Virus record (IMG/VR): IMGVR_UViG_651703075_000001
Coordinates: 64,001-88,322 of that record
Source of the DNA: a virus
Taxonomy: Duplodnaviria; Heunggongvirae; Uroviricota; Caudoviricetes
Length of the DNA stretch: 24,322 bases
Direction: 5' to 3' (one strand)
The notes beneath the pieces are model-generated. The model did no database searches. It was not told the DNA's origin and saw only the letters and a list, made by a program, of their open reading frames with translations. The position numbers and the translations under genes were made by a program. Shown here piece after piece: positions 18,823 to 19,813 of the stretch (the stretch's first letter is position 1; the number at the start of each line of letters is the position of its first letter).

Positions 18823-19125
18823 ATGAGAAACATGTTCGTTACGCCCCATGCCAGGAAACGCTTTCGTGAGCGGTTCCGGCTCCAGTTCCACCCCTCGGTC
18901 TTCGAGGACGGTAGAGACATCTACGTCATCCGGAAGCTTTTCGCTGAAGCGAAATACTGTGATTTTGAGCTTCGTATGCGGATAGGAAACTATAACGCGC
19001 TCTGCGTAAAGCACGGCAGGGTCGTAAGGGTTTCCAAGGTTCGGAATTTCGTATTCGTTCACGATGACTCGACGATCTACACAATCCTGAAGGAAGGGAT
19101 GGTTCTGTCAAACGTGAGGTTTTAG
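18823..19125 (+). CDS. hypothetical protein with TxHAxxRxxER motif (DUF4258/RelE-like RNase fold possible)
   Basis: RBS AGGAGG; MFVTPHARKRFRERF and C-terminal FVFVHD...TI. Confidence 0.75.
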   Translation: MRNMFVTPHARKRFRERFRLQFHPSVFEDGRDIYVIRKLFAEAKYCDFELRMRIGNYNALCVKHGRVVRVSKVRNFVFVHDDSTIYTILKEGMVLSNVRF

Positions 19126-19197
19126 GGTAGGGGTCTTGGCGACCAGGTTGGACTCCAAATTCAACCCAGCTCAGTTCGAATCTGAGACTGCCCGCCA
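19125..19197 (+). tRNA. non-canonical tRNA-Trp(CCA)-like RNA
   Basis: Acceptor GGGTAG/CTGCCC, G discriminator, encoded CCA; T-arm CTCAG-TTCGAAT-CTGAG; 7-bp anticodon stem with loop CTCCAAA; D arm GGTC-TTGGC-GACC. Confidence 0.7.
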
Positions 19198-19205
19198 AAA
19201 ATCTC

Positions 19206-19233
19206 TTGACTTTATCTGAAAATGTGGTAAAGT
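19206..19233 (+). promoter_or_regulatory. sigma70 promoter for the tRNA operon
   Basis: TTGACT-N16-TAAAGT with TGn extended -10. Confidence 0.65.
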
Positions 19234-19250
19234 GGATTTAAGAGATTCAG

Positions 19251-19390
19251 ATGTGGGACCGACGAAGCTGATGTGCAGAGGAGGTGATCCAGCATCTCCC
19301 GGACGGGTCCGGGTTACCAACCCGCTAATTTCATAGCCCGACAGCAAGGGTAGTTCCTGCGGGGCCAGGGTCCAAGTGACCCTCCTACAT
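19251..19390 (+). ncRNA. candidate structured leader RNA abutting tRNA-Asn
   Basis: Closing stem ATGTGGG/CCTACAT; hairpins GGAGGTG/CATCTCC, GGGTT/AACCC, AGGGTC/GACCCT. Confidence 0.5.
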
Positions 19391-19467
19391 TCCGTTCGGT
19401 CCCTCAAGGTGAGGGAGCTTGACTGTTAATCAAGACGTGCCTGGTTCGATTCCAGGGAGCGGAGCCA
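19391..19467 (+). tRNA. tRNA-Asn(GTT)
   Basis: Acceptor TCCGTTC/GAGCGGA, CTTGA-CTGTTAA-TCAAG, CCTGG-TTCGATT-CCAGG, GCCA end. Confidence 0.95.
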
Positions 19468-19615: not shown

Positions 19616-19736
19616 GCTGTGTAAGTTGGACTGTTGCAGTGAAGCGATAGGCTCCCCGGATCGTAAGCCGGTAACGTGGGGATAGAGGGCTCCCACCGCT
19701 GAGCAACAGGAGGTTCGATTCCTCAACACAGCCCCA
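19616..19736 (+). ncRNA. 121-nt tRNA-like RNA: acceptor stem, T-arm and CCA, with a large structured insert replacing the anticodon arm
   Basis: GCTGTGT/ACACAGC-C-CCA; GAGG-TTCGATT-CCTC; CTGTTGC/GCAACAG. Confidence 0.75.
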
Positions 19737-19813
19737 AAACTGCTCCAGGCAGTTCAGCTAGGCTAGGCTTGAGAGGTAGTAGCCCGTTTTTCCAAAACCT
19801 CTCACTTACAATC

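What the first reader, a model, noticed from the sequence alone, without database searches (positions are those of the whole stretch)
19125..19197. Non-canonical tRNA-Trp(CCA) likely missed by standard scanners
Seen: a canonical T-arm and encoded CCA, but a 6-bp acceptor plus G.A mismatch, no U8/A9 connector, a 4-bp D stem with a 5-nt TTGGC loop, a 7-bp anticodon stem (GGTTGGA/TTCAACC) and a 3-nt variable loop. Established: the CCA anticodon and G73 are major bacterial TrpRS identity elements, and both are kept; a short D loop, long anticodon stem and 3-nt variable loop recall tRNA-Pyl geometry. Inference: a functional redesigned tRNA (possibly resistant to anticodon nucleases, or altered in UGA read-through), or a TrpRS decoy.
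Basis: partly seen in the sequence, partly recalled or inferred. Interest (0 to 1): 0.75.

Follow-up and report, generated by a model that had tools for sequence, protein, structure and literature searches.

The report
Hidden compact tryptophan tRNA of phage
The PAK_P3/KPP10-type Pseudomonas phages, said to carry three tRNA genes, carry a fourth, unannotated one: a real, conserved tryptophan tRNA with a shrunken core that standard tRNA finders miss.

Summary
Window 19125-19197 (+) folds into the described cloverleaf. ARAGORN at default settings and the Rfam tRNA model both miss it, and none of 34 related GenBank genomes annotates it.

The window is a Nankokuvirus (PAK_P3/KPP10-like lytic Pseudomonas phage). 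The element is not a chance fold or a decaying relic:
- Homologues with the same architecture occur in Otagovirus M5.1-type phages, phage Boevelstad and uncultured phage contigs.
- A second sequence family sits in tRNA/tmRNA arrays of uncultured phage contigs.
- Across 22 distinct sequences the acceptor, anticodon and T stems keep pairing through many two-sided changes, and G73 is invariant.
- A covariance model built only from the second family finds the window copy at 59 bits (E about 1e-10).
- In the fetched tRNA arrays that hold the compact gene, ARAGORN calls no other tRNA-Trp.

Best reading: a working elongator tRNA-Trp with a compact core like tRNAPyl or mitochondrial tRNA-Ser(UCN). It is co-transcribed behind gp163, whose stop codon it overlaps by one base. 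Processing and charging are not shown.

Why tryptophan, and why this shape (nuclease evasion, altered decoding), remains open. This scan has noted compact-core phage tRNAs before on other DNA, but not this gene.

The parts
19125..19197 (+). Compact tRNA-Trp(CCA) gene, 73 nt including the encoded CCA
   Evidence: Sequence. MFE cloverleaf. A covariance model built from an independent family scores it 59 bits, E 1e-10. ARAGORN -ps90 calls it. Homologues show compensatory changes.
19125..19131 (+). Acceptor stem, 5' strand. It pairs with 19187-19193. G7.A66 is a mismatch in this phage and C-G in relatives.
19132..19144 (+). D arm: 4-bp stem and 5-nt loop holding GG. It starts directly after the acceptor stem, with no position 8/9.
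   Evidence: The same hairpin, with variable loops, occurs in 22 sequences.
19146..19166 (+). Anticodon arm: 7-bp stem and 7-nt loop. Anticodon CCA is at 19155-19157, with U33 and A37 A38.
   Evidence: Stem pairs covary.
19167..19169 (+). 3-nt variable loop
19170..19186 (+). T arm: 5-bp stem with G53-C61 and loop TTCGAAT
   Evidence: Two T-stem pairs change on both sides within family A.
19187..19197 (+). Acceptor stem 3' strand, discriminator G73 (19194) and encoded CCA (19195-19197)
   Evidence: G73 is invariant in 22 distinct sequences.
18823..19125 (+). Upstream gene (PAK_P3 gp163 homologue, phrog_11136, unknown function). The last G of its TAG stop codon is G1 of the tRNA.
19206..19233 (+). 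Promoter immediately downstream of the tRNA-Trp. It drives the leader and the annotated tRNAs Asn, Tyr and Gln, so the tRNA-Trp lies outside that unit.
   Evidence: Consensus scan. PAK_P3 'putative promoter_18'. Nanopore cDNA 5' adaptor junctions at 19240.

Best explanation
It is a phage-encoded elongator tRNA-Trp(CCA) with a compact core.

Inferred pathway:
- It is transcribed as the 3' part of the gp163 transcript.
- RNase P cuts it out at G1, one base inside the gp163 stop codon. The 3' end is trimmed back to the encoded CCA.
- Host TrpRS charges it through the kept identity elements: C34 C35 A36, G73, G2-C71 and G3-C70.
- It is used on the ribosome to read UGG.

The core is rebuilt in the manner of tRNAPyl and mitochondrial tRNA-Ser(UCN). 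The 8/9 connector is gone. The D loop is cut to 5 nt but keeps GG for the elbow contact with the canonical T loop. Two extra 5' nucleotides pair with the first two variable-loop positions, which lengthens the anticodon stem to 7 bp and leaves a 3-nt variable loop.

Shown here: the structure, its conservation and covariation, and its distribution in phages. Inferred, not shown: processing, charging, ribosomal use, and the selective reason. The most likely reason is to supply or replace tRNA-Trp when host tRNA is degraded or attacked during infection.
For: 1. The structure is as described and is not a chance fold.

2. Homologues limited to the 73-nt element occur in other phage genera at about 78% identity and in IMG/VR and metagenome contigs.

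3. Covariation:
- Family A (8 sequences including the window): 91% of cells paired, 6 pairs with two-sided changes, and 0 of 500 shuffles reach the covariation score. Slid registers drop to 34-47% paired.
- Family B (14 sequences): 98% paired, 14 pairs with two-sided changes, 0 of 500 shuffles.
- RNAalifold predicts the same cloverleaf on its own.

4. G73 was not part of any search pattern and is invariant in all 22 sequences. G2-C71 and G3-C70 are nearly invariant. These are bacterial Trp identity elements (PMC9976931).

5. A covariance model built only from family B scores the window copy at 59 bits, E 1e-10. Canonical tRNAs in the same loci score 40 bits or less.

6. Within Nankokuvirus there are no substitutions in 72 nt, against 5% variable columns in gp163 and 2.6-5.2% in the three annotated tRNAs.

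7. In the related arrays fetched, with 13-20 tRNAs each, ARAGORN calls no other tRNA-Trp. In other Otagovirus genomes the same slot holds an annotated, canonical-shaped tRNA-Trp.

8. Like the three annotated tRNAs, it encodes its CCA.

9. RNA-library contigs span the region without a break.
Against: No data here show a discrete 73-nt RNA, its 5' or 3' ends, or its aminoacylation. The read tool returned contigs only and listed no ends at 19125 or 19197. The published ONT-cappable-seq pipeline overlooks RNAs under about 80 nt.

The gene lies upstream of the tRNA-cluster promoter and has no promoter of its own.

The window copy has a G.A mismatch at 7-66 and lacks the minor Trp elements A1-U72 and G5-C68.

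The D stem sequence and the anticodon loop were fixed by my metagenome search pattern, so their constancy in those hits carries no information. For the anticodon loop, only the BLAST-derived homologues count.

No tRNA with a zero-nucleotide connector and a 7-bp anticodon stem has, to my knowledge, been shown to work with a bacterial TrpRS, EF-Tu and ribosome.
Confidence: 0.75

Rival explanations
1. It is a tRNA-like element that is not used in translation. It could be an RNase P / 3'-end processing signal for the gp163 transcript. Cutting at G1 would strip the last base of the stop codon and couple gp163 expression to processing. Alternatively it could be a decoy that soaks up TrpRS or a tRNA-Trp-directed nuclease.
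For: The tRNA starts on the last base of the gp163 stop codon and has no promoter of its own. The neighbouring sRNA2 shows that this phage makes at least one abundant tRNA-shaped RNA that lacks an anticodon arm. The core departs far from the canonical form.
Against: In Otagovirus, Boevelstad and metagenomic phages the same RNA sits inside ordinary tRNA arrays, some with their own promoter. It has no link to gp163 there, and ARAGORN finds no other tRNA-Trp in those arrays. The full anticodon loop with U33, CCA and A37 is kept in the BLAST-derived homologues from other genera, and G73 is invariant in all 22 compact sequences. A mere processing signal would not need either.
Confidence: 0.12
2. 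It is a working tRNA-Trp whose rebuilt D arm and anticodon stem change decoding. One example would be increased reading of UGA, as in the Hirsh D-arm suppressor or the 4-bp-anticodon-stem tRNA-Trp.
For: D-arm and anticodon-stem changes in tRNA-Trp(CCA) are known to raise UGA reading (PMC13092985). In the M5.1-type relatives the anticodon stem has only 4 standard pairs closed by two pyrimidine mismatches.
Against: The window copy has a fully paired 7-bp stem, the opposite of the short-stem design. TGA is the commonest stop codon of this phage, about 48% in a crude gene set, so strong read-through would be costly. No in-frame TGA requirement was seen in the ORF list.
Confidence: 0.08
3. It is a decaying remnant of an ancestral tRNA-Trp gene (a pseudogene), left when the KPP10-like lineage lost most of its tRNA array.
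For: KPP10-like phages keep only 3 annotated tRNAs against 11-13 in the sister genus (PMC4309531). The window copy has a 7-66 mismatch. The homologous genes in Pakpunavirus and PE09 have poorly paired D stems or acceptor mismatches.
Against: All four helices are intact and there are no substitutions across the genus. Compensatory changes separate it from relatives. The same design is maintained in a distant second family.
Confidence: 0.05

Closest known systems
tRNAPyl, especially the Methanomethylophilus alvus type (review PMC7609411)
   Same: No nucleotide between acceptor and D stem (M. alvus). A 4-5-nt D loop, a lengthened anticodon stem and a 3-nt variable loop. That is, the same way of compacting the tRNA core.
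   Different: tRNAPyl has anticodon CUA and is charged by PylRS. In the M. barkeri and D. hafniense forms described in the review it lacks G18G19 and the T-Psi-C motif. The phage RNA has anticodon CCA, G73, a canonical T loop and GG in the D loop. No sequence homology was seen.
Mammalian mitochondrial tRNA-Ser(UCN) ('type I' mt-tRNA; PMC7609411)
   Same: Short connector, small D loop, 6-bp anticodon stem and 3-nt variable loop, while keeping G18G19 and T-Psi-C. This is the nearest match in design.
   Different: It is organellar with serine identity. It keeps one connector nucleotide, where the phage tRNA has none. Its anticodon stem is 6 bp, against 7 bp in the window copy.
Canonical bacterial and phage tRNA-Trp(CCA), e.g. 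the annotated tRNA-Trp in the same genomic slot of Otagovirus phiPsa374, psageK4e and NoPa
   Same: Anticodon loop, G73, G2-C71 and G3-C70, T arm, encoded CCA, and position in the phage tRNA region.
   Different: The canonical forms have two connector nucleotides, a 9-nt D loop, a 5-position anticodon stem and a 5-nt variable loop, and scanners find them. The window form has lost 3-6 nt on the 5' side.
Phage tRNAs that escape tRNA-targeting defences (PMC10264068, PMC11555353)
   Same: A lytic phage keeps a small set of tRNAs that codon usage does not explain. Trp has one codon, so codon compensation cannot apply.
   Different: The published cases rest on changes in the anticodon loop. Here the loop is host-like and the body is what is rebuilt. 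No nuclease that targets tRNA-Trp is known in Pseudomonas. VapC toxins that cut tRNA-Trp are known in mycobacteria (PMC5175351).
Compact-core phage tRNAs noted earlier in this scan on other genomes (e1-1602341, e1-409268, e1-4091175; AI notes)
   Same: A shrunken D arm, a lengthened anticodon stem, conservation among phages, and failure of standard finders to call them.
   Different: They are in other genomes and mostly have other specificities. I did not check those notes, and none concerns Nankokuvirus.

Membership tests
tRNA (general cloverleaf; Rfam RF00005) | 7-bp acceptor stem, discriminator and 3' CCA | tested here: met
   Six pairs plus G.A in the window, and 7 pairs in most relatives. 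G73 and CCA are encoded.
tRNA (general cloverleaf; Rfam RF00005) | T arm: 5-bp stem with G53-C61 and a 7-nt loop T54 T55 C56 R57 A58 | tested here: met
   The loop is TTCGAAT, and the stem pairs covary.
tRNA (general cloverleaf; Rfam RF00005) | Anticodon arm with a 7-nt loop, U33 and purine 37 | tested here: met
   The loop is CUCCAAA. The stem is 7 bp instead of 5.
tRNA (general cloverleaf; Rfam RF00005) | U8/N9 connector and a D loop of 7-11 nt | tested here: not met
   No connector, and a 5-nt D loop. GG is kept in the loop.
tRNA (general cloverleaf; Rfam RF00005) | Score at or above the family's gathering threshold (29 bits) | tested here: not met
   No RF00005 match at this site even at E<=10.
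Bacterial tRNA-Trp identity set | Anticodon C34 C35 A36 and discriminator G73 (major determinants) | tested here: met
   G73 is invariant in 22 sequences. Identity set from PMC9976931.
Bacterial tRNA-Trp identity set | G2-C71, G3-C70 and G4-C69 (strong in B. subtilis); A1-U72 and G5-C68 (minor) | tested here: inconclusive
   G2-C71 and G3-C70 are present. Position 4-69 is U.G, 1-72 is G-C and 5-68 is A-U in the window.
Bacterial tRNA-Trp identity set | Aminoacylation by TrpRS | not testable with these tools
   Needs an in vitro charging assay or an acid-urea northern.
Compact-core tRNAs (tRNAPyl / mt-tRNA-Ser(UCN) design) | Connector of 0-1 nt, D loop of 5 nt or fewer, anticodon stem of 6 bp or more, variable loop of 3 nt or fewer | tested here: met
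   The window values are 0 nt, 5 nt, 7 bp and 3 nt. In family B the sixth anticodon-stem pair holds in 14 of 14 sequences and the seventh in 9 of 14, with G-C, A-U and G-U variants.
tRNAPyl | CUA anticodon | tested here: not met
   The anticodon is CCA, the T loop is canonical and GG is present. This is a resemblance in design only.

The most novel reading that the evidence does not exclude
Phages maintain a distinct lineage of compact-core tRNA-Trp. With the pattern used, it was absent from one genome for each of 185,579 bacterial and archaeal species. Its rebuilt body could be an adaptation specific to tryptophan tRNA. It might let the phage tRNA escape a host factor that recognises the body of tRNA-Trp, such as a nuclease or another tRNA-directed defence, or it might tune decoding. 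The unusually fast turnover of alleles at the tRNA-Trp slot in Otagovirus would then be the trace of an arms race.
Probability: 0.25. Interest if true: 0.8.

Novelty: new variant of a known kind. Interest (0 to 1): 0.6.

Why it matters
PAK_P3 and KPP10 are model and therapeutic phages, and papers and GenBank records state that they have three tRNAs. A fourth gene, for an amino acid with a single codon, cannot be explained by codon compensation. It points instead to tRNA supply or protection during infection.

More generally, it is a natural tRNA from a bacterial system that presumably works with an ordinary TrpRS, EF-Tu and ribosome. It has no 8/9 connector, a 5-nt D loop and a 6-7-bp anticodon stem. 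If charging is confirmed, it widens the known structural tolerance of bacterial translation. It would also offer a compact scaffold of interest for orthogonal tRNA design.

It also shows that default tRNA finders undercount phage tRNAs.

Tried and rejected
- One IMG/VR pattern scan used a wrong spacing (16 instead of 15 nt between the anticodon loop and the T loop). It returned only an unrelated canonical tRNA-Trp.
- The genome-contig scan gave one hit, which is not a tRNA.
- Reads: only assembled contigs of the RNA runs were available. No 5' or 3' ends were listed at 19125 or 19197. The local rise in contig depth over the candidate in one nanopore run (57 upstream, then 190, 663 and 216) cannot be used as a measure of expression.
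- The supplement of the ONT-cappable-seq paper is not held.
- ARAGORN at relaxed thresholds finds the gene, but I do not count this as evidence, because it makes about 2 false calls per random genome at that setting.
- ARAGORN's own drawing uses a 4-nt connector and a 3-nt D loop. I rejected it because that pairing is impossible in family B, whereas the GGTC/GACC hairpin fits all sequences.
- The idea that gp163 is a small RNase acting with the tRNA found no support: no Pfam family at E<=1, and a PHROG of unknown function.
- UGA recoding was rejected: TGA is the commonest stop codon.
- A scan for the same architecture with any anticodon in all fetched loci gave 22 Trp and no genuine others. 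The loci were chosen with Trp patterns, and earlier notes of this scan report compact tRNAs of other specificities elsewhere. I therefore do not claim the design is specific to Trp in general.

Full report
**What the window is.** The 2-kb stretch around the finding is 99-99.8% identical to Pseudomonas phages vB_PaeM_PS24, PAK_P3, PAK_P5 and many others of the genus Nankokuvirus (KPP10-like lytic myoviruses). The whole genome held for the window is 88,322 bp at 54.8% G+C. In PAK_P3 coordinates the finding lies between gene PAK_P30163 and 'putative promoter_18'. That promoter precedes the annotated tRNAs. The literature states that KPP10-like phages carry only three tRNAs: Asn, Tyr and Gln (PMC4309531).

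**The observation.**
- The acceptor stem has six pairs plus G7.A66.
- There is no connector nucleotide.
- The D arm is a 4-bp stem with a 5-nt loop.
- A single A follows.
- The anticodon stem has 7 bp and the loop reads CUCCAAA.
- The variable loop has 3 nt.
- The T arm is canonical, and G73 and CCA are encoded.

RNAfold gives this cloverleaf as the minimum-energy and centroid structure, holding 63% of the ensemble. The energy itself is not unusual for the composition (z = -1.48). Scored as a pure architecture, meaning stem lengths and pairing only, it occurs once in the real genome. It occurs in none of 30 simulated genomes.

**Scanners miss it.** ARAGORN with default settings and the Rfam tRNA model both miss it, the latter even at E<=10. 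None of 34 GenBank genomes that hold the sequence annotates it. With thresholds lowered to 90%, ARAGORN calls tRNA-Trp(cca) at exactly 19125-19197. That setting makes about two false calls per random genome, so it is not evidence by itself.

**Relatives.** A sensitive BLASTN of the element plus 65-nt flanks found matches of about 78% identity confined to the element itself. They lie in Otagovirus phages M5.1, REC and COT4 and in Pseudomonas phage Boevelstad, unannotated in all. Pattern scans added copies from IMG/VR and from metagenome contigs.

After removing duplicates there are 22 distinct sequences with this architecture.
- Family A has 70 nt before the CCA. It holds the window and the M5.1 type.
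- Family B has 69 nt and a different D loop and variable loop. It sits in contigs with many tRNAs, a tmRNA and a CUA-anticodon tRNA, a content I read as that of large uncultured phages.

The same pattern found no real match in one genome for each of 185,579 bacterial and archaeal species. The pattern fixes the D stem and the anticodon loop, so this is a limited test.

**Covariation.**
- Family A: 91% of cells form standard pairs, and six pairs have changes on both sides. These include acceptor 6-67, two T-stem pairs and the outermost pair of the long anticodon stem, which is G-C in most and A-U in one. No shuffle of 500 reaches the covariation score, and slid registers fall to 34-47% paired.
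- Family B: 98% paired, 14 pairs with two-sided changes, 0 of 500 shuffles.
- RNAalifold predicts the same cloverleaf, with the acceptor stem abutting the D stem, in both families.

The length of the anticodon stem differs among the groups. It is 7 standard pairs in the window. In the M5.1 type it is 4 pairs plus two pyrimidine mismatches closed by a covarying pair. In family B it is 6 pairs, with a seventh in 9 of 14 sequences.

G73 was not part of any pattern and is invariant. G2-C71 and G3-C70 are nearly so. With the CCA anticodon, these are the bacterial tryptophan identity elements (PMC9976931).

A covariance model built from family B alone finds the window copy at 59 bits (E about 1e-10). 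Ordinary tRNAs in the same loci score 40 bits or less, and canonical tRNA-Trp genes about 27-32 bits.

Within Nankokuvirus the element has no substitution in 72 nt. gp163 shows 5% variable columns and the three annotated tRNAs 2.6-5.2%. The expected count is only about three, so this is modest support.

**Context in other phages.** In the fetched arrays of M5.1, Boevelstad and the related metagenomic phages, ARAGORN finds 13-20 tRNAs and no tRNA-Trp. The compact gene fills that place. In other Otagovirus genomes the same slot holds other tRNA-Trp alleles. The slot lies after the same upstream gene and a conserved sigma-70-like promoter.
- phiPsa374, psageK4e and NoPa carry a canonical-shaped allele that scanners call.
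- PE09 and UNO-G1W1 carry different forms.

Between phages whose neighbouring gene is 90-93% identical, the tRNA bodies are only 70-75% identical. Pakpunavirus and Flaumdravirus carry further, mostly unannotated, versions with poorly paired D stems. The tRNA-Trp locus is therefore unusually changeable in this group of Pseudomonas myoviruses. I read this as cassette replacement or diversifying selection, which is an inference.

**How it most likely works.** The gene has no promoter of its own. The only consensus promoter in the region starts 9 nt after its CCA, and the only terminator lies past tRNA-Gln. It must therefore be made from the gp163 transcript. RNA-library contigs run through gp163, the element and the downstream leader without a break.

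G1 is the last base of the gp163 TAG stop codon. RNase P cleavage would therefore leave the mRNA ending in UA. This could tie gp163 expression to tRNA release. It is a point for experiment, not a finding.

The 3' side of the molecule has the normal 10 nt between the anticodon loop and the T stem. The 5' side is 3-6 nt short: the connector is lost and the D loop cut, partly offset by two extra nucleotides that pair with variable-loop positions. This is the compensation seen in tRNAPyl, including the M. alvus form with no connector, and in mitochondrial tRNA-Ser(UCN). The latter, like this RNA, keeps GG in the D loop and the T-Psi-C loop (PMC7609411).

I conclude it is a working tRNA-Trp. Charging and use in translation are inferred.

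**Why a tRNA-Trp.** Tryptophan has one codon, and TGG is used at an ordinary 16.6 per 1000 codons. Codon compensation therefore fails as an explanation. PAK_P3 infection degrades host RNA on a large scale and induces the host RtcB RNA-repair operon (PMC4933390). Phage tRNAs are known to replace tRNAs cut by host defences (PMC10264068, PMC11555353). Toxins that cut the tRNA-Trp anticodon loop exist, for example VapC29 and VapC37 of mycobacteria (PMC5175351). A supply or escape role is thus plausible but untested. Altered UGA reading is less likely for the window copy, given its long stem and the phage's frequent TGA stops.

**Novelty.** I found no paper describing this gene or a compact tRNA-Trp class in phages. 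Earlier AI notes of this scan report compact-core phage tRNAs on other genomes, so the design is recurrent in the scan's own records. I rate it a new variant of a known kind: a real tRNA of unusual, previously precedented design, unannotated in a well-studied phage genus.

Noticed in passing
window 19240-19328 (+): Nanopore cDNA contigs carry 5' adaptor junctions at 19240, 7 nt after the promoter at 19206-19233, and poly(A)-tailed 3' ends at 19328. Contig depth here is the highest in the region. This suggests an abundant leader RNA of about 89 nt upstream of tRNA-Asn. The scan's note e1-5430447 describes structure here.
   Followed up: partly
window 19616-19736 (+): A 121-nt RNA with a 7-bp acceptor stem, a T arm, discriminator C and encoded CCA, but no normal anticodon arm. 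It equals PAK_P3 sRNA2/ncRNA2 (86307-86426 in PAK_P3). Nanopore contigs show a tailed 3' end at 19736-19739. Another agent has already followed it up (e1-5430448).
   Followed up: partly
window 19391-19467 (+): tRNA-Asn(GUU) has G8 G9 instead of U8. It scores only 26.9 bits with Rfam RF00005, below the gathering score of 29, and PAK_P3's RefSeq record omits it. tRNA annotation in this genus is therefore uneven for two genes, not one.
   Followed up: partly
L003 1445-1577; L005 1414-1548; L006 2943-3079; L129 334-469: In Otagovirus a conserved sigma-70-like promoter (TTGACG, 17 nt, TATAAG) sits about 20 nt upstream of the tRNA-Trp slot. It is 73-92% conserved, while the tRNA behind it exists in at least four very different alleles: canonical, PE09 type, UNO-G1W1 type and compact M5.1 type.
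   Followed up: partly
L126 405-481, L127 405-481, L128 402-479: Pakpunavirus phages (Zigelbrucke, CP-p-PA-22062; K8, C2-10_Ab1 and PA10 by BLAST) and Flaumdravirus KIL1 carry a tRNA-Trp(CCA)-like gene with good acceptor, anticodon and T arms but a poorly paired D stem. ARAGORN misses it and most records do not annotate it.
   Followed up: partly
L004 1420-1494 and 1634-1710: Phage Boevelstad: ARAGORN finds tRNA-Gln(UUG) and tRNA-Arg(ACG) flanking the compact tRNA-Trp. Both are absent from the GenBank feature table.
   Followed up: no
L161 7292-7362 (-); L177 2774-2848 (+): The phage contigs that hold family-B compact tRNA-Trp also encode a tmRNA and a CUA-anticodon tRNA. The one in L161 scores 40 bits with the compact tRNA-Trp model, and its MFE fold shows an 8-bp acceptor stem. 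Possible amber-codon recoding in these phages was not examined.
   Followed up: no
L134 397-2540 (-): A 5.9-kb IMG/VR contig carries 16 tRNAs in 2.1 kb. It includes a third sequence type of the compact tRNA-Trp, with an A1-U72 acceptor like E. coli trpT and no encoded CCA. ARAGORN does call this one, with the anticodon at position 32.
   Followed up: partly
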